A DNA stretch of 64,000 nucleotides from the IMG/VR virus record IMGVR_UViG_3300037418_002332, one strand, 5' to 3'. Below the pieces are notes generated by a model, which was not told where the DNA came from, ran no database searches, and was given only the letters and a program-made list of their open reading frames with translations. Each line of letters opens with the position of its first letter. Position 1 is the first letter of the stretch. Positions 23,659-49,502 of the stretch are shown piece by piece. A program made the translations under genes and the position numbers. This DNA comes from a virus (Duplodnaviria > Caudoviricetes).

Positions 23659-24050
23659 GCGATACAGAAATTGTAGAAGGAAATTTGGAACAAGGTAATT
23701 TTGATGTGACAGAATTCAAATCAGCATTAGCTAATGGTTCGATAAATTCAGCTTTATTTCAATTCAATTTTGATAATGAGTCAACAATGCCGAACATTCC
23801 ATATTTGGCATTCAAGTATAAATTGTCCCAATCCAAGTTGAAAATTTGGTTTTATGAAACTGAAGATGGTATTTGGATTGACGGTGAAAATACTAAACTG
23901 ATTAAATTGAGTGTTTTCAAGGCTGATGGCACCAAAGCATATACAATTTCACTTGATGTTGAATTTGCGAAAGCTTCAACCAAAGGAAGTTGGGCAACTG
24001 GAAATAAGATTAAAGAATATAAGTTTACATACAGGGTATTGTCCAATTGA
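23655..24050 (+). CDS. degenerate tail-tube (gp19/gp54-like) paralogue
   Basis: FDVTEFKSALANG..SALFQF and SWATGNKIKEYKFTY resemble gp19 N- and C-terminal motifs (recalled). Confidence 0.5.
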   Translation: MSDTEIVEGNLEQGNFDVTEFKSALANGSINSALFQFNFDNESTMPNIPYLAFKYKLSQSKLKIWFYETEDGIWIDGENTKLIKLSVFKADGTKAYTISLDVEFAKASTKGSWATGNKIKEYKFTYRVLSN

Positions 24051-24904
24051 TTAGTGCTAAAATAATTCTCGGTTCTGAGTATAACGGAAAACGCATCACA
24101 ACCTTTGAATTGACATATCCACGTTTCATTCATGCTGAATTCATGACACATCGTGTATTCAGCCGAAATGCTGCCTCATCAAGAGCAATTCCGGTTCTTA
24201 AGATGTTGAAGATGATTTGGAATGATATGGCTATGCCTATCCATTGGGGTGCTAACCAATCAGGCATGCAGGCAAAGCAAGAACTTTCTCCAATGAGAAA
24301 GTGGTTCGTTCGAAAAATTTGGCGCGGTGCAGGACGAACTGCTTTGGCTGCTGCTTGGTTAATGAATAAGTTTGGTGCGCATAAGCAAATTGTTAATCGT
24401 ATAGTTGAACCATGGTCACATATCACTGTTATCATGACTACAACTGAACTTGATAATTGGTTTGAACTTCGTGATCATCCTGATGCCCAACCTGAAATTC
24501 ATGAACTCGCAAAACAAATGCGCGAAGCAGTTCGAACATATTACTATGATAAGCTCAAGGCTGATGAATGGCATTTGCCATATGTTAAAGACTATGAAAA
24601 AGCAAAGTATTCATTGTTAAAATGTATTCAAGTGTCGGTTGCGCGTTGTGCACGTGTGTCATATCTGACTCATGATGGTCAATTGTCTTTGTTTGAAAAG
24701 GATGTTCAACTTTACGAACGTCTAGTTGGATCAGTTCCACTTCATGCATCACCAGCTGAACATCAAGCTGCTCCTGTGTTGAATGCAGGTGAGAAGAAAT
24801 ATCAAGGTAACTTTTTTGGCTGGAAACAGTTTAGAAAAATTCTTGAAGAAAAGATGGCAGGCGGTAATTCAACCCTTGTTCAAACGACGTTCGCCTATAA
24901 ATAG
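24047..24904 (+). CDS. thyX: FAD-dependent thymidylate synthase
   Basis: THRVFSRNAASSRAIP, ARCARVSY, HASPAEHQA. Confidence 0.9.
   Translation: MISAKIILGSEYNGKRITTFELTYPRFIHAEFMTHRVFSRNAASSRAIPVLKMLKMIWNDMAMPIHWGANQSGMQAKQELSPMRKWFVRKIWRGAGRTALAAAWLMNKFGAHKQIVNRIVEPWSHITVIMTTTELDNWFELRDHPDAQPEIHELAKQMREAVRTYYYDKLKADEWHLPYVKDYEKAKYSLLKCIQVSVARCARVSYLTHDGQLSLFEKDVQLYERLVGSVPLHASPAEHQAAPVLNAGEKKYQGNFFGWKQFRKILEEKMAGGNSTLVQTTFAYK
24896..24903 (+). promoter_or_regulatory. T4 late promoter
   Basis: exact TATAAATA upstream of nrdA. Confidence 0.7.
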
Positions 24905-24957
24905 TGTTCCTTACAATGAGCCTGTTCATGGCTCATTTTCCATTTCCAGGAGTTTAA

Positions 24958-27255
24958 ATGTCCATAACAATCAAGAAGCGCAGTGGCGCCGACGAAATTC
25001 TACAAATTGACAAAATCCATAAACAACTTGAATTTGCCTGCGAAGGCATTCACAATGTTTCCGTTTCAGAAATCGAGTTGAGATCGGAACTACAGTTCTA
25101 CAACAACATGACGACTGAAGAAATTCAAGAAACGTTGATTAAGACAGCTGCGGATTTGATCACTGAAGAAACACCAAATTATCAATATGTTGCTTCACGT
25201 TTGATCAACTTCGATTTGAGGAAGAAAGTTTTCGGTGATACTGAACCAAAATCAATCTACGAAATCGTAAAAGCTGGTGTTGCAGCAGGGTTCTATGAAC
25301 CTGGATTGCTAGACTGGTACACTGAATCCGAATGGGATTCTATGAATCGTATGTTGAGACATGAACGTGACTTCAACATTGTTTACGCTGGAATGGAACA
25401 ATTCAGACGAAAGTATCTCGTCAAAAATAAAATCACCGACCAATACTATGAAACACCTCAAATGGTTTACATGTTGATCGCAGCAACAGCTTTCAATATG
25501 GAAGAAAAATCAAAAAGACTAAAGCTGATCAAGGAGTTTTATAATGCAGTTAGTAATTTCGACATTGGCTTGCCTACTGCTATTTTGGCTGGAGTTAGAA
25601 CTCCTATTCGCCAGTTCTCCAATTGTACTCTTATTGACGTGGGCGATAGTCTTGATTCCATTAATGCAGCTGCATCATCTATCGTCAAATACGCTAGCAA
25701 GAGAGCTGGTATTGGTTTCAACGTTGGTCGTCTTCGTGCTATTGGGTCTCCTATTCGTAATGGAGAAGTCACCCACACCGGTGTTCTTCCCTTCATTAAG
25801 TATCTCACTGCTGCATTAAAATCATGTAATCAAGGTGGCATTCGTAATGCTTCCGCAACATGTAATTTCCCAATGTGGCACTATGAATATGAAGACTTGG
25901 TTGTTTTGAAGAATAACAAGGGTGTTGAAGAAGCACGTAATCGTTCAATTGACTATGTCATTCAAATCAATCAAGTTCTACTACAAAGATTGATTGACGG
26001 CAAAGACATTACATTGTTCTCACCATCTGATGTTCCTGATTTGTATGAAGCATTTTTCAGATCAAATGCTGAATTTGAATATCTTTACAACAAGTATGAA
26101 AAAGATAAATCAATTCGTCATCGTAAGATTTCCGCATTGGAAGCTTTCAGCCAATTGATCCTTGAGCGTAAGGAAACAGGTCGTATCTATATTCAATTTG
26201 TTGATAATACCAATGAACATGGTGCATATGATAGTTCAAAGCAAATCATTACCATGACTAACCTTTGTGTTGAAATCACTCCAATCACCAAGCCTCTTGA
26301 TGATGTGAATGATCCAAATGGTATTGTTTCACTATGTACTTTGGCTTCATACAATTTGGGTAATGTAAAGACACCATCTGACTTTGAACGTATGTCTTCA
26401 ATCTTGGTTCGCTTCCTTGATAACATTCTAACATATCAAGATTATTTGCTTCCAGCTGCGAAACATTCAACTGATCTTTACAGAAACATTGGTATTGGCT
26501 TGACCAACTTGGCATATTTCCTTGCTAAGCATAACCAAAAATATACTGATGAATCAACTACTGAGTTTCTTGCTCCGTTCTTTGAAGCATACTCATATTA
26601 CACGATCAAAGCTTCAATGGAATTGGCTAAGGAACGCGGTGCTTGCTTGGGCATCGATGATACCAAATGGAAGCAAGGGTTGACTCCGGTTGATACATAC
26701 CGCAAAACTCTTGACGAATACACCAAAAACGATTTACTTCTTGATTGGAATCAGCTAAAAAGTGATTTGAAAGAGTTTGGTGTTCGTAATGCTAATCTCA
26801 TGGCACAAATGCCTAATGAGACCAATTCTCAGGTCATTAACTCAACCAACGGCATTGAACCACCGCGTTCACTAGTTTCCGTTAAGAGTTCCAAGGATGG
26901 TGCTCTTAAGCAGGTCGTGCCTGAAATTTCAAGATTGAAGAAGCGATATGAACTTCTTTGGGATCAAAAGTCTCCCGAAGGATATCTGAAAATCTGCGGT
27001 CTTTTGACTAAGTTCATTGATCAAAGTATTTCAACAAACACTTCTTACAATCCTGAGTTCTATGAAGACAAAATCATTCCTATGTCAGTGTTGATCAAGG
27101 ATTTAATTACTGCCTATCGTATGGGTATCAAGACCTTGTACTATCACCAAGAAAATGACATGGCTGGTGAAATTGAAATCAAAGCTGAAGTTCCAATCTT
27201 TGTTGAATCAACTGATTCGTTGGAAGATGAGTTCTGCGAAAGTTGTGCCATTTAA
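24958..27255 (+). CDS. nrdA: Ribonucleotide reductase class Ia alpha
   Basis: ATP cone, FSNC, NQGGIR, TNLCVE, NSTNGIEPPR, C-terminal CESCAI. Confidence 0.97.
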   Translation: MSITIKKRSGADEILQIDKIHKQLEFACEGIHNVSVSEIELRSELQFYNNMTTEEIQETLIKTAADLITEETPNYQYVASRLINFDLRKKVFGDTEPKSIYEIVKAGVAAGFYEPGLLDWYTESEWDSMNRMLRHERDFNIVYAGMEQFRRKYLVKNKITDQYYETPQMVYMLIAATAFNMEEKSKRLKLIKEFYNAVSNFDIGLPTAILAGVRTPIRQFSNCTLIDVGDSLDSINAAASSIVKYASKRAGIGFNVGRLRAIGSPIRNGEVTHTGVLPFIKYLTAALKSCNQGGIRNASATCNFPMWHYEYEDLVVLKNNKGVEEARNRSIDYVIQINQVLLQRLIDGKDITLFSPSDVPDLYEAFFRSNAEFEYLYNKYEKDKSIRHRKISALEAFSQLILERKETGRIYIQFVDNTNEHGAYDSSKQIITMTNLCVEITPITKPLDDVNDPNGIVSLCTLASYNLGNVKTPSDFERMSSILVRFLDNILTYQDYLLPAAKHSTDLYRNIGIGLTNLAYFLAKHNQKYTDESTTEFLAPFFEAYSYYTIKASMELAKERGACLGIDDTKWKQGLTPVDTYRKTLDEYTKNDLLLDWNQLKSDLKEFGVRNANLMAQMPNETNSQVINSTNGIEPPRSLVSVKSSKDGALKQVVPEISRLKKRYELLWDQKSPEGYLKICGLLTKFIDQSISTNTSYNPEFYEDKIIPMSVLIKDLITAYRMGIKTLYYHQENDMAGEIEIKAEVPIFVESTDSLEDEFCESCAI

Positions 27256-27623
27256 TGAACAATTTCGATAAAACCCAATTGACATTGCAAATGCTCGAAA
27301 AATTTGATCGGGCAATTGCTTTGGGTGGTAAACATGTTGCCACTGAATATTTGTATTCAGGATTGGGAACCCATAATCGTGATGGCACGTTAACTAAGGA
27401 ATATGGTGGTCAAAGAACAGATGATGATCACCCTGTTCATTCTAAAAAGGTAGAACCACCTGCTGCGAAAATTTCAAATCCAATTTTCACTGTTGAAATA
27501 GAACTTGAATTGGTTCAAGATTTGAAAGCAATAAGCCATCTAAATTGGAAAGATGAATTAGCAAAGGTTCTTGGTACTGAACTGGTGGTACAATACGAAG
27601 AATGGGAAAGAAACAATCCTTAA
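27255..27623 (+). CDS. small protein ending in a major-capsid (gp23) fragment
   Basis: LELVQDLKAISHLNWKDELAKVLGTEL resembles gp23 IELAQDLRAVHGMDADAELSGILATEI (recalled). Confidence 0.65.
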   Translation: MNNFDKTQLTLQMLEKFDRAIALGGKHVATEYLYSGLGTHNRDGTLTKEYGGQRTDDDHPVHSKKVEPPAAKISNPIFTVEIELELVQDLKAISHLNWKDELAKVLGTELVVQYEEWERNNP

Positions 27624-27886
27624 GAGGTACAATTATGCCTACAATCTATTTGGGTGTTTTTGGACTGGCAATCTCAATTTTTCTCGCAGTGATGAGAAAT
27701 ACTGATGTGAATGAGGAAAATAAAGATGGACAAAAAAGCGACGGCGATAACGCTGAGAGCGATCGCAGCGATGGCGGAAAAGCTGGCTGACGATCTTACT
27801 GGCAATCGTTTGTGGGAAGGCGAATTCAATGAGGCTGCATCACAAATCAAAAAGTATGCAGCCTCATTGCCAGATGAAAAAGGAAG

Positions 27887-28441
27887 ATGGTAATGAAACT
27901 TTATACAGCACCCGATGACATTTCGGAAACAAGAAAAATCAAGGGAAACTATGATTTCAAAGTTTTTCTTGGTGGCTCGATTGAAATGGGAAAGGCTGTT
28001 GATTGGCAAAATGAAGTGGTTGATTACTTCAAGCACCAAGACCGCTTAGTGCTCTTCAATCCTCGTCGTCCTGATTGGGACTCAACTTGGAAGCAAGACC
28101 CAACTCCCGGAACTCCATTTCATGAACAGGTGAATTGGGAACTTGATGCTCTCAATGATTCAGATTATGTTTTGTTCTATTTTGATCCAAACACCGTCAG
28201 TCCTATCACTTTGTTGGAATTGGGCATCTATTCACAACACAAAGATAAAGTTATCGTGGTCGTTTGTCCTCCCGATTATTTCAGGTATGGAAATGTTAAG
28301 ATCGTTTGTAATCGTGAACGACTCATCCACTTTACGTCATTGAAGCCTGCCTTGGAATGGCTTGGCACCGATATTCATGACGTTATCGCTTTGTCTGATC
28401 CAGACTATGAAGAAAAACAATTGAAGCCTTTGGAGAAATAA
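27887..28441 (+). CDS. nucleoside 2-deoxyribosyltransferase-like protein
   Basis: VFLGGSI..DWQ, QVNWE, SPITLLELG. Confidence 0.8.
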   Translation: MVMKLYTAPDDISETRKIKGNYDFKVFLGGSIEMGKAVDWQNEVVDYFKHQDRLVLFNPRRPDWDSTWKQDPTPGTPFHEQVNWELDALNDSDYVLFYFDPNTVSPITLLELGIYSQHKDKVIVVVCPPDYFRYGNVKIVCNRERLIHFTSLKPALEWLGTDIHDVIALSDPDYEEKQLKPLEK

Positions 28442-29556
28442 TGGAAATCAATGTTGACTACACCAAGAGAAAAATGTTTCTCAATGGTGACGTTTCAATC
28501 GCTCGTTATGATCAATTGAAATATCCAATGCTTGACACATTGGTCAAGCGTCAAAGAAGCTTCTTCTGGCAACCTGAAGAAATTCAAGATATTGGTCGTG
28601 ATAAATCCGACTTCAATCTTCTTCAACCTCATGAAAAGCACATTTTCGTTTCAAACCTTTTGAGACAAACGCTTTTGGATTCAATCCAAGGTCGAGCTCC
28701 TTCTGAAGTTTTCACTCCAATCACCTCAGTTCCTGAGGCTGAAATTTGGACGCAAACTTGGGCTTTCTCTGAAACAATCCATTCATATTCATACACTTAC
28801 ATTGTCAGAAATATTTTTGCCAATCCAAGTGAAGTGTTTGACAAAATGCCGTCCATTCAAGAAGTTGTAGATTGCGGTGTTGATATTTCCAAATTTTATG
28901 ATGAATTAGCAATTTACAATAAATTGGTTGATATTTATGGCTATGATGCAGATGTTGGCCATCACGAAATAACTCTCGATCCATTGAATGAGTATGAGCA
29001 TAAGAAACGTCTTTGGAAGTGTTTGATGTCAGTTAACATTCTTGAAGGCATCCGTTTCTATGTTTCATTTGCTTGCTCATGGGCTTTTGCCGAACGTAAG
29101 ACTATGGAAGGCAATGCAAAAATCATTAAGTTGATTGCGCGTGATGAAAATCTTCATCTGGCTTCAACACAATACATGCTTCGTGAATTGAAGAAAGAAG
29201 ATGCTGACTTTGCACAAATTGCAGAAGAAACTGAATCTGAATGTATTCAAATGTTCAATGAAGCTATTCGACAAGAAAAGGAATGGGCTGATTATCTGTT
29301 CAAAGATGGATCGATGATCGGGTTGAATGCAAACATTCTCAAGCAATACGTGGACTATATAGCAAAACAAAGAATGAAGGCTGTTGACCTACCTTGTGAA
29401 CTAGAAGTGAAAACCAACCCACTTCCATGGACAAATAAATGGATCGGTGGTAAGGAAGTACAAAATGCACCACAGGAAGTTAATATCACCAGTTATCAAG
29501 TTGGTGCTATTAAATCAGATCTTGATTCTGATTCCTTGAAAGGTTTCAAACTTTAA
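28441..29556 (+). CDS. nrdB: Ribonucleotide reductase class Ia beta
   Basis: FFWQPEEI, DSIQGR, ETIHSYSY, EGIRFYVSF, RDENLH, APQE. Confidence 0.97.
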   Translation: MEINVDYTKRKMFLNGDVSIARYDQLKYPMLDTLVKRQRSFFWQPEEIQDIGRDKSDFNLLQPHEKHIFVSNLLRQTLLDSIQGRAPSEVFTPITSVPEAEIWTQTWAFSETIHSYSYTYIVRNIFANPSEVFDKMPSIQEVVDCGVDISKFYDELAIYNKLVDIYGYDADVGHHEITLDPLNEYEHKKRLWKCLMSVNILEGIRFYVSFACSWAFAERKTMEGNAKIIKLIARDENLHLASTQYMLRELKKEDADFAQIAEETESECIQMFNEAIRQEKEWADYLFKDGSMIGLNANILKQYVDYIAKQRMKAVDLPCELEVKTNPLPWTNKWIGGKEVQNAPQEVNITSYQVGAIKSDLDSDSLKGFKL

Positions 29557-29783
29557 TGCCAACTGCAAATACAGTTTTAAATATCAAGCAATATTTTGAT
29601 GTAGAAAATTATGAACCAACTGTTATCTATGACAACAAAATCCATGTGGTCGGTAGATTAAAAAGAACTTACAATGATGTTGCATTTATCTATGCGCCAT
29701 ACATTCCATTGCAAATGGTTGGAGCACCAGCAAATACTGCAATAAAAACGGTTGGATTTAAAACGAGATACGGCATTGTCTGA
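29556..29783 (+). CDS. 75-aa protein carrying gp23 C-terminal block
   Basis: AFIYAPYIPLQMVGA...VGFKTRYGIV resembles gp23 AGIYYAPYVAL...MGFKTRYGI (recalled). Confidence 0.75.
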   Translation: MPTANTVLNIKQYFDVENYEPTVIYDNKIHVVGRLKRTYNDVAFIYAPYIPLQMVGAPANTAIKTVGFKTRYGIV

Positions 29784-30030
29784 GTGGCCAAAAGATACTA
29801 TCTATGATCCACAAATACATGTTATCGGACGAATTGAACAAAATCAATATGATCCAGTTTTGCTTGGCATAGTCAGAAGAACGTGGCCAACGTTGCTTGC
29901 TAATTCAATTATTGGATCGCAAAATATGATGAATCCTTCAGGACAAGTATTTTCACTGAGATCAAAATACAGTGGAGCAACTTCAAATACCCAAACAGTT
30001 ATAATAAAGGACGAAATAGATGGCGAGTGA
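29776..30030 (+). CDS. 84-aa protein carrying gp23 Gol-region block
   Basis: PVLLGIVRRTWPTLLANSIIGSQNMMNPSGQVFSLRSKY resembles PAVMGMVRRAIPNLIAFDICGVQPMNSPTGQVFALRAVY (recalled). Confidence 0.75.
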   Translation: MSEWPKDTIYDPQIHVIGRIEQNQYDPVLLGIVRRTWPTLLANSIIGSQNMMNPSGQVFSLRSKYSGATSNTQTVIIKDEIDGE

Positions 30031-30198: not shown

Positions 30199-32061
30199 AT
30201 GACAGACGGAATTAAAAAACTTTCAGACTATGAGCACGTGAGATTGAGAACTGAGATGTATCTTGGTTCTCGTTCACCGCATACTCAAGAAATCATTTCC
30301 TACAATGAAGGTGTTCCAGTTCTAAAAGAATACACTTGGACACCAGCAGCATTCACAGCTTTCCGTGAAGTGTTGGACAACTCATTGGATGAAATAATCG
30401 GTCATGGTTTCGGCTCAAGAATCGATGTAGAGTACGATGAAGCTAATAAGATTTTTTCAGTGAAAGATAATGGTCGTGGCATTCCAATCACATGGGATGA
30501 CAAGGAAGAAATGCACAAGGCAACTTTGGTGTTGACTCATACTCGTGCAGGTCGTAACTTCGGTGAACGGCAAGAAGTTGCTGGTACAAATGGTATTGGC
30601 GCGTCGGCTGTGAATTTTTGTTCAGAATTTTTTGAAGTCACAATCAATCGTGATAACACCAAGTTCGAACAAAAATTCGTTGAAGGTGAACATGAGTTGA
30701 AAATTGATCCGCCTAAGATGCGTGAAGTGAAAAGTGATGCATCAGGCACCGCAATTCGCTTTAAACTTTCATCAAAGGTGTTCAGTTCAATTCTACTTCC
30801 ACTGGAATTCATACGTGATCGCCTTTATGAAGTTGCTGTATTCAATCCTCAGTTGACTGTTTACTTCAACAAGGAAAAGATCAAGGTTGGTGCGACGATT
30901 GAACGTTCCCTTTTCAACAAGGAAAAGGTGATCAAATTTGATATCAACGAAGATGGTTTCCGTTCAACTTTCTTTGTCAAACCAAATTTCCAATTGAATT
31001 CATCTGAATATATGTTCTCGTTCGTGAACAACGTTCCAGCTTTCAATGGTGGAACTCATATGGATACATTTCGTCGTCAATTCATTTCAGGTGTTTTGGA
31101 TGCTTTGACTCGCGAAGGCAAGAAACGTAAATTGACTCCAAATCGATCTGATGTCAATGAAGGTTTGTTGATTCTAAATCACACAAAGATGAGAGCGCCG
31201 AACTTCGACAGTCAGTCCAAAACTCGTTTGATTAACGAAGAACCTGCAAAGATCATCACAGCTGCAATTGATGCTAAGGAAATCGCTAAGATGCTCCGTA
31301 AGCATGAAGATTGGGTTGAACAAATCTTTGAACGTTGCGCATTCCGTACAAACAAGCAAGACCAAAAGGATTTGGAAAAGGAATCAAAGAAGCTTTCACG
31401 TCGAAAAATTCCAAAACTTCGTGACGCAACCTCAAGTAATCGTCAAGATTGTATCTTGTTGCTAGCTGAGGGAGATTCAGCTATCTCCGGTTCAGCTGCG
31501 GTTCGCGATCCAAAAATCCATGCTGGATTGCCATTGCGCGGTAAAGTTCTAAACGTCAATGGTGAGTCACCAAAAACCGTCATTGACAATAAAGAACTGG
31601 CTGATATCATGTCTGCAATAGGCTTGGCCATCGGCAAAAAAGCAGTGAGAGATGATTTGCGATATGGTAGAATTTATTTGGCCCATGACGCTGATCCTGA
31701 CGGTGCAAACATCGGTGCTTTATTGGTGAATTTTTTCCATACATTTTGGCCTGAACTATTTACCGATGAAAAGAATCCATTTATAAGTGTATTCATGACT
31801 CCGTTCATCATTGCTCAAAAAGGCAAGGAACGTCGTTATTGGTATTCAGATAATTATGCTGAATTCAAGCCTGAAGATTATAAAGGCTGGTCAATCACCA
31901 GAGCCAAGGGTCTTGGTACTCTTGAAGAACCCGATTGGGAACATTCTCTGAAGTCACCAAAACTTTTCCATATAGTTGATGACGGTAAGATGAAAGAAGC
32001 TTTGGATTTGATTTTCAATGGTTCAAAGGCTGACGATCGGAAATTGTGGATGGGAATTTAG
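30199..32061 (+). CDS. gp39: Type II topoisomerase large subunit (gp39+60 fused)
   Basis: HVRLRTEMYLGS, DNGRGIP, GTNGIGAS, AEGDSA, PLRGKVLN, DADPDG, KGLG. Confidence 0.96.
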   Translation: MTDGIKKLSDYEHVRLRTEMYLGSRSPHTQEIISYNEGVPVLKEYTWTPAAFTAFREVLDNSLDEIIGHGFGSRIDVEYDEANKIFSVKDNGRGIPITWDDKEEMHKATLVLTHTRAGRNFGERQEVAGTNGIGASAVNFCSEFFEVTINRDNTKFEQKFVEGEHELKIDPPKMREVKSDASGTAIRFKLSSKVFSSILLPLEFIRDRLYEVAVFNPQLTVYFNKEKIKVGATIERSLFNKEKVIKFDINEDGFRSTFFVKPNFQLNSSEYMFSFVNNVPAFNGGTHMDTFRRQFISGVLDALTREGKKRKLTPNRSDVNEGLLILNHTKMRAPNFDSQSKTRLINEEPAKIITAAIDAKEIAKMLRKHEDWVEQIFERCAFRTNKQDQKDLEKESKKLSRRKIPKLRDATSSNRQDCILLLAEGDSAISGSAAVRDPKIHAGLPLRGKVLNVNGESPKTVIDNKELADIMSAIGLAIGKKAVRDDLRYGRIYLAHDADPDGANIGALLVNFFHTFWPELFTDEKNPFISVFMTPFIIAQKGKERRYWYSDNYAEFKPEDYKGWSITRAKGLGTLEEPDWEHSLKSPKLFHIVDDGKMKEALDLIFNGSKADDRKLWMGI

Positions 32062-48178: not shown

Positions 48179-48802
48179 ATGACCGCCGCATTTACTGAGA
48201 TTCAGACTGCGACTGGTGAATTTTTTGATTATGCGCATTTTTCTGAAACCGATATCCATGAAGAAGATATCGCCCATGCTTTGAGTATGATTTGCAGATT
48301 CAATGGACACTGCTTGAAATTTTACTCAGTAGCAAAGCACCTTTGTTTGGTGCATGATTTGATGGAGTACGATCGTGTCGAAATGAAAAAACCATTGACA
48401 CGTGAAGATGTTTTCCACGGACTAATTCATGATGTTGGTGAAGCATATCTCACCGATATTCCAAGACCATTGAAGAATTACTTTACACAAAGCACTGAAT
48501 TCACTGCTTTCATGGATGACTACATCGATATTGAAAATAGAATCATTGAAGGCTTTGCGCGCAAATATCCATATGGTAAACATGCGCCTCATGCGGCAAC
48601 TGTGAAATACTATGACACATGGGCTTTGTTGCTTGAACAAAAATATCTGATGACCAAAACAAAGAAGGAATGGTCAATAAGTATTGCTGATTATCCTGAT
48701 GAACCTCATTTCGTTAAAGGCATGATGAATCCATTTTTGTATGAAAAAGATTGGGCACGTGAGTTCATGAATAGATTGGAATATTACAATGAAGTTGCTT
48801 GA
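48179..48802 (+). CDS. HD-domain 5'-deoxynucleotidase (YfbR-like)
   Basis: EDIAHALSMICRFNGH, YSVAKH, LIHDVGEAYLTDIPRPLK. Confidence 0.88.
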   Translation: MTAAFTEIQTATGEFFDYAHFSETDIHEEDIAHALSMICRFNGHCLKFYSVAKHLCLVHDLMEYDRVEMKKPLTREDVFHGLIHDVGEAYLTDIPRPLKNYFTQSTEFTAFMDDYIDIENRIIEGFARKYPYGKHAPHAATVKYYDTWALLLEQKYLMTKTKKEWSISIADYPDEPHFVKGMMNPFLYEKDWAREFMNRLEYYNEVA

Positions 48803-49502
48803 CAAAGTCAAGAAATTTTTCAAGAACACTTTTCCTGAGGTCAAAATCGATCCTGAAGTTCAATCAATGGTTGATTTGGGATTGATTTCACCAACACAAG
48901 CCTCGAATGTAACGCAGGTTCCGTTTCAAATTCAAAAGATTCAAGTGACTGCTAAATCAAGAACAATGGTTGCTCAATGGAACCATGAACCTGATTTATC
49001 TGATGAATGGTATTCTGAACGATACAATTTAGATTTTAGCGAATGTCCACAATGGAACAAAGAAATTTATGCAACTGTCTACGATCACTTCGCTGATACA
49101 CAAACTTCCATGTATCCTGTAACATTGACTCGTGAGCTTCCACGTGGATCAGGCAAATCAACCTTTTTCAGAAAGTTGATTGAGAATCTCTACGAAGCCA
49201 TGAGAAATGATCCGAAGTTGATGGTGAATAAAGTTGTTTACATTGGAGCAAATACGACTCAATGCAGAGAATTTTGCAAGTATTTTCTGCAAACCCAAAC
49301 TAACAACTTTCATCAAACAGGATTTTTGGTTTGGACTGCAAATTTGGCTCAAGCTTTGGATAATTCAAAGCTTTATCCGGCTGGCAAAAACATTCTCTAT
49401 ATTTTGGATGATGCTCTCGATGATCCAAATAGCTTCACCACTCAATCAATTAAAGACCGTCATGATAAAGTTATGATAGTCAAACTTTACACACCAAGAT
49501 AA
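48789..49502 (+). CDS. chimera: gp23 fragment plus terminase-like P-loop remnant
   Basis: PFQIQKIQVTAKSRTMVAQW; ELPRGSGKST; YILDD. Confidence 0.55.
   Translation: MKLLDKVKKFFKNTFPEVKIDPEVQSMVDLGLISPTQASNVTQVPFQIQKIQVTAKSRTMVAQWNHEPDLSDEWYSERYNLDFSECPQWNKEIYATVYDHFADTQTSMYPVTLTRELPRGSGKSTFFRKLIENLYEAMRNDPKLMVNKVVYIGANTTQCREFCKYFLQTQTNNFHQTGFLVWTANLAQALDNSKLYPAGKNILYILDDALDDPNSFTTQSIKDRHDKVMIVKLYTPR

What the first reader, a model, noticed from the sequence alone, without database searches (positions are those of the whole stretch)
27255..27623. Capsid ELAQDL block fused to an unrelated N-terminus between nrdA and nrdB
The C-terminal LELVQDLKAISHLNWKDELAKVLGTEL matches gp23 (I/L)ELAQDL(R/K)A(V/I)HG(M/L)DA..EL..IL.TEI. 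In gp23 this directly follows the AKSR block, which here sits in another ORF 21 kb away.
Basis: partly seen in the sequence, partly recalled or inferred. Interest (0 to 1): 0.68.

Follow-up and report, generated by a model that had tools for sequence, protein, structure and literature searches.

The report
Small phage gene carrying a capsid-protein piece
A 122-codon gene wedged between the two ribonucleotide-reductase genes of an uncultured T4-like phage joins a complete small phage protein to a real ~45-residue piece of the major capsid protein (the helix that contacts neighbouring capsomers); it is one of several such capsid-piece genes in this phage lineage, and their function is untested.

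Summary
ORF 27255-27623 (+, 122 aa) ends in a block (aa 79-113) homologous to T4-type major capsid protein gp23. Evidence: hhalign probability 93.7%; an HMM built here gives E 1.9e-5 against all 1,847 six-frame ORFs of the window; the real tail scores 20.7 bits against at most 7.2 for 5,000 shuffles; all 40 listed of 562 weak tblastn hits lie on capsid genes. The Pfam hit alone is below threshold.

The block maps to T4 gp23 residues 267-301: strand end, short acidic P-domain helix and first part of the spine helix.

The "unrelated N-terminus" is a full copy of an unnamed family of stand-alone 56-94 aa proteins, present in Agrobacterium phage Atu_ph07 and a T4-like IMG/VR contig. None of the others has the capsid tail, so the gene is a chimera.

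It looks like a working gene: normal in-frame codon usage, and its ATG overlaps the nrdA stop. It lies in a 1.2-kb insertion at a junction that is under 200 nt in 45 of 74 related loci.

Two sister mini-genes after nrdB carry two other gp23 blocks, and a weak fourth lies 21 kb away. The scan had already followed up those sisters on this same genome. Sinorhizobium phage Phosso has two capsid-piece genes.

Function is unknown. I favour a capsid-interface mimic or docking tag; an immune decoy or a neutral relic remain open.

The parts
24958..27255 (+). nrdA, class Ia ribonucleotide reductase large subunit. Its stop TAA shares its last A with the ATG of the target gene.
   Evidence: Pfam ATP-cone, Ribonuc_red_lgN and lgC, E 4e-117. 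Sequence ...TTTAATG....
27255..27623 (+). Target gene, 122 aa (P0001): a chimera of a small-protein module, a linker and a gp23 piece.
   Evidence: ORF. Codon-usage score 0.36 per codon in frame against 0.40+-0.09 for long genes, negative in the other five frames. No whole-length homologue.
27255..27449 (+). aa 1-65: a complete copy of an unnamed family of stand-alone 56-94 aa proteins (two helices plus a conserved Gly/Asp/His-rich loop).
   Evidence: phmmer against 1.84e9 proteins: 7 relatives, all matching aa 10-71 only. Profile search: 16 members. Invariant N41 D43 G44 Y50 G51 G52 T55 H59 P60. AF2 pLDDT 83-94 for aa 11-60.
27450..27488 (+). aa 66-78: Pro-rich linker, predicted disordered. 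Possibly a decayed remnant of the gp23 strand that precedes the block.
   Evidence: pLDDT below 50 for aa 68-79. Ungapped BLAST alignments to gp23 extend back to aa 52-66.
27489..27593 (+). aa 79-113: gp23-homologous block, equal to T4 gp23 residues 267-301 (strand end, short acidic P-domain helix, loop, start of spine helix).
   Evidence: hhalign 93.7%. HMM E 1.9e-5. Shuffle test. T4 numbering from the alignment. Structural roles from PMC9546572.
27594..27620 (+). aa 114-122: continuation of the amphipathic helix, weakly like T4 gp23 302-307, then the end of the protein.
   Evidence: AF2 helices 98-106 and 108-120. Tail codon score 0.34, within the range of real genes.
27635..27790 (+). 51-aa ORF with one hydrophobic helix, preceded by AAGAGG. 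Part of the same insertion.
   Evidence: No Pfam hit.
27711..27893 (+). 60-aa ORF of unknown function; overlaps the previous ORF in another frame.
27887..28441 (+). Nucleoside 2-deoxyribosyltransferase-like gene, the last gene of the insertion.
   Evidence: Pfam PF15891, E 5.7e-31.
28441..29556 (+). nrdB, ribonucleotide reductase small subunit.
   Evidence: Pfam PF00268, E 9e-42.
29556..29783 (+). Sister mini-gene B (75 aa): gp23 C-terminal block, about T4 424-480 including the P loop. Its ATG overlaps the nrdB stop in the same TAATG arrangement.
   Evidence: Pfam Gp23 30.3 bits, above cut-off. HMM E 3.3e-8..
29752..30030 (+). Sister mini-gene C (84-92 aa): gp23 'Gol' block, about T4 92-130.
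   Evidence: Pfam Gp23 45.6 bits. HMM E 5.6e-14..
48789..49502 (+). Possible fourth piece D: a 237-aa ORF whose aa 38-67 weakly match the gp23 strand just before block A; the rest is P-loop NTPase-like.
   Evidence: Pfam E 0.016, PHROG 138 E 0.0075, HMM E 0.1. Shuffle test 11.8 against at most 7.2 bits.

Best explanation
ORF 27255-27623 is a real, expressed chimeric gene. A complete small phage protein, which stands alone in other phages, is joined by a floppy linker to about 45-55 residues derived from a T4-type major capsid protein. The derived part is the end of a P-domain strand, the short acidic P-domain helix and the first two-thirds of the spine helix (T4 gp23 267-307).

The gene sits in a 1.2-kb insertion in the normally tight nrdA-nrdB junction and is translationally coupled to nrdA. 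I infer that it is therefore made together with the nucleotide-metabolism genes, before the capsid protein itself. It belongs to a dispersed set of capsid-piece genes (A here, B and C after nrdB, perhaps D) that also occurs in a related cultured phage.

Favoured mechanism (inferred, not shown): the capsid piece acts as a docking element that imitates the capsomer-edge helix. In T4 that helix makes charge contacts with P-domain strands of neighbouring capsomers at the quasi-threefold axes. The tail would bind that complementary surface on free or assembling capsid protein, or on sister pieces B and C, which supply P-domain strands and the P loop. This would bring the N-terminal module to the capsid protein, either to tune or cap capsomer association or to hitch a ride into the prohead.

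Shown: the homology, the chimeric build, the gene-like properties, the insertion context and the recurrence. Inferred: any binding, the timing and the effect. I put about 0.85 on 'real chimeric gene with a gp23-derived tail' and about 0.35 on this mechanism.
For: Homology of the tail.

The N-module is a separate and complete family. It is a stand-alone gene in Atu_ph07 (AUZ94912, HMM E 1.7e-13), in a T4-like IMG/VR contig and in a 435-kb metagenome contig.

Gene-likeness: the codon score of the tail alone is 0.34, against 0.42+-0.14 for in-frame 57-codon windows and -0.77 off-frame. The chance that 57 random codons stay open is 0.017. The start is a TAATG overlap with nrdA, as for mini-gene B with nrdB.

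Insertion context: nrdA is directly upstream of nrdB in 74 of 80 related loci, and the gap is under 200 nt in 45 of them.

Recurrence: Phosso has two extra gp23-piece ORFs, carrying the Gol block and the C-terminal block. They are only 41% and 33% identical to Phosso's own gp23, so they are old and not fresh copies. Atu_ph04 has a weak one. In Phosso and in P0001 the piece is joined to an unrelated partner domain, which fits a tag or adaptor role.

Structural mapping: P0001 aa 79-113 equals T4 267-301. That stretch holds the short negatively charged P-domain helix that contacts neighbouring capsomers, and the head-length mutation cluster 268-287. Pieces B and C hold the other two clusters (457-461; 94, 97) (PMC9546572). 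The acidic residues of the short helix are kept in P0001 (E83, E85, D89).

The AF2 model gives helix-loop-helix for the tail without any alignment depth there.
Against: - No binding, expression or phenotype data exist.
- No homologue of the whole chimera or of piece A was found anywhere, so selection on the tail cannot be measured.
- The phage's own gp23 lies outside the window and could not be fetched. A very recent neutral copy therefore cannot be excluded.
- The match of the three pieces to the three length-mutation clusters is not independent evidence. These are also the most conserved gp23 blocks, the only ones an HMM could still detect.
- The two acidic loop residues D285 and D287 of T4 are N and K here.
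- Mini-genes B and C have no partner domain, which does not fit a pure 'tag' role.
- Complex prediction could not be run with the tools on hand.
Confidence: 0.35

Rival explanations
1. Neutral relic. A stretch of a capsid gene was pasted by illegitimate recombination or double-strand-break repair into the recombination-prone nrdA-nrdB junction, just behind a resident small gene. That gene's stop codon was lost, so the piece is translated as a passenger tail with no function of its own.
For: The nrdA-nrdB gap is a variable insertion site: 29 of 74 related loci carry 250-3,700 nt there. The chimera is unique and every other member of the N-module family ends at about aa 65. The linker looks decayed and disordered. 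Only the most conserved gp23 blocks are detectable, as expected for old fragments.
Against: One phage has three or four separate pieces, each in an intact and well-packed ORF with normal in-frame codon usage. A 57-codon open tail has a chance probability of 0.017. Two pieces are retained in Phosso at only 33-41% identity to its own gp23 yet still fit the consensus, which implies long maintenance. The consensus residues of the helix are kept.
Confidence: 0.3
2. Immune decoy or antagonist. Host defence sensors that recognise conserved surfaces of unassembled capsid protein would be pre-loaded with non-activating capsid pieces made early in infection. Lit with the Gol block of gp23 is one such sensor, and some Avs/STAND sensors bind capsid proteins. 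The real capsid protein made later would then not trigger abortive infection.
For: An isolated 29-residue gp23 block (Gol) is by itself biologically active on EF-Tu and Lit (PMC3014915). STAND sensors that bind major capsid proteins are reported (bioRxiv 10.64898/2026.01.04.697583). Competition for a sensor by a phage protein has a precedent in DSAD1 against the tail tube at DSR2 (PMC11087589, abstract). The pieces are the most conserved and thus most 'recognisable' gp23 blocks, and they are coupled to nucleotide-metabolism genes rather than late genes.
Against: A faithful copy of a trigger should activate the sensor rather than block it, and the Gol peptide alone activates Lit. No sensor is known for the 267-301 block. 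No paper describing capsid-fragment decoys was found. This reading does not explain why the piece is fused to another protein.
Confidence: 0.18
3. Weapon against co-infecting T4-like phages. The pieces would act as dominant-negative caps on the capsomers of rival phages whose capsid protein has the canonical motif.
For: The tail resembles cyanophage/T4-type gp23 (31-40% over 48-88 aa) much more than the gp23 of the nearest cultured relatives Phosso and Atu_ph07 (19% for Atu_ph07, no hit for Phosso).
Against: The phage's own gp23 is unknown and may itself be of the canonical type. There is no precedent and no data.
Confidence: 0.1
4. Chance resemblance: an amphipathic acidic helix that merely looks like gp23.
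For: The Pfam score is below the gathering threshold. phmmer against PDB sequences finds nothing.
Against: 0 of 5,000 shuffles come near the real score. E is 1.9e-5 within the window, and there are 0 hits in 18,043 control ORFs. hhalign gives 93.7%. All 40 listed tblastn hits are capsid genes. Two neighbouring ORFs carry other gp23 blocks above the Pfam threshold.
Confidence: 0.02

Closest known systems
T4-type major capsid protein gp23 (Pfam PF07068; T4 structures 6UZC, 7VS5, 5VF3)
   Same: aa 79-113 are homologous to T4 gp23 267-301 (strand end, short acidic P-domain helix, start of the spine helix), with 49% identity to the consensus of eight T4-like capsid proteins.
   Different: Only about 10% of a capsid protein is present. 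There is no A domain, no P-domain sheet and no N-arm. The score is below the Pfam threshold. The gene lies among nucleotide-metabolism genes and is fused to an unrelated module, so it cannot form a shell.
Gol peptide of T4 gp23 with the e14 Lit protease and EF-Tu (PMC3014915)
   Same: It is a precedent that a short isolated block of gp23 has an activity of its own. Sister mini-gene C carries that very block.
   Different: P0001 carries a different block (267-301, not 93-122). Gol is an experimental fragment of gp23, not a separate natural gene. No EF-Tu or Lit link was tested here.
Unnamed family of 56-94 aa proteins (for example Atu_ph07 AUZ94912; session proteins P0002-P0019)
   Same: aa 1-65 align end to end with the family and all invariant residues are present.
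   Different: P0001 alone continues for 57 more residues. The family has no Pfam or PHROG model and no known function.
Free-standing insertions between nrdA and nrdB of T4-like phages (the mobE homing endonuclease in T4, from my own knowledge)
   Same: Same insertion site, in an otherwise tight gene pair.
   Different: No endonuclease domain was found in the target gene, the deoxyribosyltransferase-like gene, the 51-aa ORF or the 60-aa ORF.
Phage proteins that compete with a structural protein for a host sensor (DSAD1 against the tail tube at DSR2, PMC11087589)
   Same: A possible logic: a small early protein occupies a site meant for a late structural protein.
   Different: DSAD1 is not derived from the structural protein. 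No sensor is known here.

Membership tests
Major capsid protein Gp23 (PF07068) | Whole-protein score above the Pfam gathering threshold (24.4 bits) | tested here: not met
   15.2 bits, E 0.015.
Major capsid protein Gp23 (PF07068) | Full HK97-type fold: N-arm, P-domain sheet, spine helix and A domain, about 400-520 aa | tested here: not met
   The ORF is 122 aa and only profile positions 153-183 of 376 are matched. The AF2 model shows helices only.
Major capsid protein Gp23 (PF07068) | [quoted passage not shown] | tested here: met
   hhalign 93.7%, HMM E 1.9e-5, shuffle test.
Major capsid protein Gp23 (PF07068) | Position in the head-gene cluster after the scaffold gene gp22 | tested here: not met
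   The gene lies between nrdA and nrdB. In the reference phages gp23 follows gp22.
Unnamed small-protein family (N-module) | End-to-end alignment with the invariant N, D, G, Y, G, G, T, H and P positions | tested here: met
   Profile E 1.6e-26. HMM E 2.6e-27.
Unnamed small-protein family (N-module) | Stand-alone protein of about 56-94 aa that ends just after the conserved loop | tested here: not met
   P0001 has a 57-aa extension. 13 of the 15 other members end within a few residues of the loop and none has a gp23 tail.
Gol peptide (T4 gp23 residues about 93-122) | Corresponds to the Gol region of gp23 | tested here: not met
   The tail maps to T4 267-301. The Gol block is in ORF 29752-30030 instead.
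Gol peptide (T4 gp23 residues about 93-122) | Binds EF-Tu and activates the Lit protease | not testable with these tools
   Biochemical property (PMC3014915).
Homing endonuclease inserted between nrdA and nrdB | GIY-YIG, HNH or similar nuclease domain | tested here: not met
   No such Pfam or PHROG hit for the target ORF. The deoxyribosyltransferase-like gene matched only PF15891 and the 51-aa and 60-aa ORFs had no nuclease hit.

The most novel reading that the evidence does not exclude
This phage lineage keeps a dispersed tool-kit of small genes. Each encodes one isolated contact element of the major capsid protein: the N-terminal Gol block, the short acidic helix with the spine helix, the P loop with the C-terminal strands, and perhaps the preceding strand. 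Some are fused to other modules. Made before the capsid protein, they act on capsid protein, or on host sensors of capsid protein, by mimicking its own interfaces. That would be a class of phage-encoded 'self-fragment' regulators or decoys not described before. P0001 would be the member that couples such a mimic to a second small effector module.
Probability: 0.4. Interest if true: 0.82.

Novelty: new variant of a known kind. Interest (0 to 1): 0.64.

Why it matters
Short pieces of structural proteins kept as separate genes are not part of the standard picture of phage genomes. If they are maintained, they point to a way of controlling capsid assembly, or of blinding capsid-sensing immunity, with fragments of the capsid protein itself.

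The tail of this gene is the element that, in T4, links neighbouring capsomers and where head-length mutations cluster. The idea is therefore directly testable with a tail deletion, head morphology, virion proteomics and binding assays.

It also shows that annotation pipelines miss such pieces. The Phosso examples are labelled hypothetical, and one lies partly in an unannotated gap.

If the pieces prove to be scars, they still document how fragments of the most conserved late gene are scattered into early regions at recombination hot spots.

Tried and rejected
- **Whole-ORF homologues.** None were found by word-index search, in IMG/VR or in JGI metagenome contigs. Full HMMER against 1.84e9 proteins found only N-module relatives.
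- **The phage's own genome and own gp23.** A 'longer' search with sister ORF C found nothing. Earlier scan notes place the head genes before the window start, so own-gp23 identity could not be measured.
- **Structure.** Foldseek against the PDB, phmmer against PDB sequences and the ESM Atlas gave nothing usable for the N-module or the whole protein.
- **gp23 pieces or N-modules near nrdB in 80 related loci.** None.
- **A spine-helix piece in Phosso, Atu_ph07, ACP17, Atu_ph04, ORM_20, V45v66, Hallingskeid or GAP32.** None.
- **Synteny with the nearest relatives.** Phosso and Atu_ph07 lack orthologous nrdA/nrdB. I therefore do not count the closeness of the Atu_ph07 N-module gene to a gene annotated as RNR as synteny.
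- **Promoters and terminators.** Nothing above chance. One TATAAATA lies upstream of nrdA, but 2 occur in the window against 2 expected.
- **DNA repeats around the gene.** Chance level only.
- **N-terminus of P0001 resembling the gp23 N-terminal propeptide.** Rejected: no HMM alignment at all.
- **Literature on capsid-fragment genes or decoys.** Nothing found.
Full report
**What is there.** The stretch 27255-27623 is one ORF on the + strand: ATG at 27255, TAA at 27621-27623, 122 aa. It lies in a same-strand run of genes: thyX (24047-24904), nrdA (24958-27255), the target, a 51-aa hydrophobic ORF (27635-27790), a 60-aa ORF (27711-27893), a nucleoside 2-deoxyribosyltransferase-like gene (27887-28441), nrdB (28441-29556), two mini-ORFs (29556-29783 and 29752-30030), a 58-aa ORF, and the topoisomerase II large subunit (30199-32061). 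The window is the replication and nucleotide-metabolism region of a T4-like phage with no close relative in the phage collection: megablast finds nothing and nrdA is at most 51-53% identical. By the topoisomerase, the nearest cultured phages are Sinorhizobium phage Phosso (57%) and Agrobacterium phage Atu_ph07 (55%).

**Is the capsid resemblance real?** Yes.
- Pfam Gp23 hits aa 81-111 with E 0.015, below its threshold. PHROG 138, 'major head protein', gives E 0.01.
- I built an HMM from eight annotated T4-like capsid proteins and ran it against all 1,847 six-frame ORFs of at least 20 aa in the window. Three ORFs stand out: 29746-30027 (E 5.6e-14), 29532-29780 (E 3.3e-8) and the target (E 1.9e-5). 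The next is 48771-49499 at E 0.1, and everything else is above E 2.
- The same HMM finds nothing at E<=1 in 18,043 ORFs from 80 related nrdB neighbourhoods, 686 kb in all.
- The real tail scores 20.7 bits. The best of 5,000 composition-preserving shuffles scores 7.2.
- tblastn of the protein against 50,697 phage records returns 562 weak hits, one per record. All 40 listed fall on major capsid genes.

**Which part of the capsid protein.** I used the RB16-to-T4 alignment from the PDB sequence search. Its numbering reproduces G292, D285, D287, A275 and A268 as named in PMC9546572. On that numbering, P0001 aa 79-113 correspond to T4 gp23 267-301, and the helix runs on to about residue 307. According to PMC9546572, this stretch has three features:
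- It contains the short, negatively charged P-domain helix at the capsomer edge, which makes charge contacts with P-domain strands of neighbouring capsomers near the quasi-threefold axes.
- It holds one of three clusters of head-length mutations (A268V, A275T, D285V, D287V/N).
- It includes the start of the spine helix, where the gp31-bypass positions 292, 306 and 307 lie.

P0001 keeps the acidic and hydrophobic pattern of the short helix (E83, E85, D89) and the start of the spine helix. The loop residues matching D285 and D287 are N and K. The AF2 model predicts helix 77-92, a loop, then helices 98-106 and 108-120 for the tail (pLDDT 67-85), although the alignment gives no depth there.

**The N-terminus.** A full HMMER search of 1.84 billion representatives found seven relatives, all matching only aa 10-71. 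A profile search raised this to 16 proteins of 56-94 aa. They align with P0001 from residue 1 to about 65 with nine invariant residues, and 13 of the 15 others end within a few residues of the conserved loop. The family has no Pfam or PHROG model. The model of this part is confident, with pLDDT 83-94 for aa 11-60, but it has no PDB or Atlas match.

Members stand alone in three contexts:
- in Atu_ph07 (annotated hypothetical AUZ94912, HMM E 1.7e-13);
- in a T4-like IMG/VR contig, between the two halves of a split DNA polymerase gene;
- in a 435-kb metagenome contig.

None of them has a capsid tail. P0001 is therefore a chimera: a complete small protein, a Pro-rich linker predicted to be disordered (aa 66-78), and a gp23 piece. 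BLAST alignments hint that the linker is a decayed continuation of the gp23 strand.

**Is it a gene?**
- Its codon-usage score is 0.36 per codon in frame, against 0.40+-0.09 for long genes, and is negative in the other five frames.
- The tail alone scores 0.34. In-frame 57-codon windows of real genes score 0.42+-0.14 and off-frame windows -0.77. Fifty-seven random codons would stay open with probability 0.017.
- The ATG overlaps the nrdA stop (TAATG). Mini-gene B starts on the nrdB stop in the same way.
- No convincing promoter or terminator separates it from nrdA.

Expression together with nrdA is thus likely but not shown.

**Synteny.** In 74 of 80 related loci, nrdA lies directly upstream of nrdB. 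The gap is under 200 nt in 45 of them, including eight of the nine closest, and 250-3,700 nt in the rest. The 1,185-nt, four-gene stretch here is therefore an insertion at a variable site. None of the other insertions carries an N-module or a gp23 piece. Phosso and Atu_ph07 lack orthologous nrdA/nrdB genes.

**The wider set.**
- ORF 29556-29783 matches gp23 profile positions 301-349 (30.3 bits), about T4 424-480. This includes A455 and the P loop 457-461.
- ORF 29752-30030 matches profile positions 3-48 (45.6 bits), about T4 92-130, the Gol block with A94 and G97. Both are above the Pfam threshold.
- ORF 48789-49502 weakly matches the strand just before block A.
- Pieces C, A and B thus contain, respectively, the three head-length clusters named in PMC9546572. 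This is striking, but these are also three of the four most conserved gp23 blocks, so it is not independent evidence.
- Scans of whole genomes show that Phosso has, besides its real gp23, two extra pieces in ORFs annotated as hypothetical. One carries the Gol block (182169-182852, E 1e-7) and one the C-terminal block (113926-114360, minus strand, E 7e-5). They are only 41% and 33% identical to Phosso's own gp23 and are joined to unrelated sequence.
- Atu_ph04 has one weak Gol-type piece.
- Atu_ph07, ACP17, ORM_20, V45v66, Hallingskeid and GAP32 have none.
- Piece A has no counterpart outside this phage.

**Interpretation.**
- Chance is excluded.
- The chimeric build, intact frame, adapted codon usage, translational coupling, the number of pieces in one genome, and the old but still consensus-like pieces in Phosso favour maintained genes. 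That is my main reading.
- Because the piece is an inter-capsomer contact helix, and pieces recur fused to unrelated partners, I favour a role as a docking element or interface mimic acting on capsid protein. This is inference only (about 0.35).
- A neutral scar at a recombination hot spot remains a serious rival (about 0.3).
- An immune-decoy role (about 0.18) has the Gol/Lit precedent that a gp23 fragment can be active, and capsid-sensing STAND proteins are reported. However, a true mimic of a trigger should activate rather than block.
- Use against rival phages (about 0.1) is suggested only by the tail being closer to canonical gp23 than to Phosso/Atu gp23.

**Relation to earlier scan notes.** The scan had already noted and followed up the two sister mini-genes and the idea of a 'dispersed repertoire' on this same genome. 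I used those notes as leads and re-tested the gp23 hits myself. One note said that mini-gene B has no counterpart in the nearest relatives. The Phosso C-terminal-block ORF qualifies that: it is the same block in a different gene.

**Literature.** No paper in the held library describes capsid-fragment genes in phages.

Noticed in passing
window 29556-30030: Two overlapping mini-ORFs right after nrdB carry the gp23 C-terminal block and the Gol block, both above the Pfam threshold. Their N-terminal parts resemble each other (32% over 34 aa, E 3e-5).
   Followed up: partly
window 48789-49502: A 237-aa ORF pairs a weak gp23 strand block (aa 38-67) with a P-loop NTPase-like part. Weak PHROG hits are to the terminase large subunit (E 0.0015) and thymidylate kinase.
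   Followed up: partly
window 27827-27869: Perfect 14-nt inverted repeat with a 15-nt spacer inside the 60-aa ORF 27711-27893. Its meaning is unknown.
   Followed up: no
window 24896-24937: A TATAAATA (T4 late-promoter consensus) sits 55 nt upstream of nrdA, followed by a terminator-like hairpin at 24915-24937. The motif count in the window equals chance.
   Followed up: partly
window 27635-27893: The 51-aa hydrophobic ORF and the 60-aa ORF overlap by 80 nt in different frames, and both have positive coding scores.
   Followed up: no
L100 (Phosso PV764938 182169-182852): The Gol-type capsid piece lies mostly in an unannotated 265-nt gap upstream of the annotated start of hypothetical protein XYS97433. 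An in-frame ATG further upstream would include it, so the annotated start is probably too late.
   Followed up: partly
L164 (Atu_ph04 MF403007 10524-10610, minus strand): Weak extra Gp23 match (15.7 bits, profile positions 3-31) in a 149-aa open frame far from the real capsid gene. Possibly another Gol-type piece.
   Followed up: no
L089 2972-6339: A T4-like IMG/VR contig has its DNA polymerase in two ORFs. They are separated by a metallophosphatase gene and a 61-aa member of the N-module family.
   Followed up: partly
L009-L088: The nrdA-nrdB junction is usually 9-160 nt, but 29 of 74 loci carry insertions of 250-3,700 nt, so it is a recurrent insertion site.
   Followed up: partly
P0004, P0005: Two relatives of the N-module carry it twice in tandem (137 aa and 337 aa), so the module can be repeated and combined with other sequence.
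   Followed up: no
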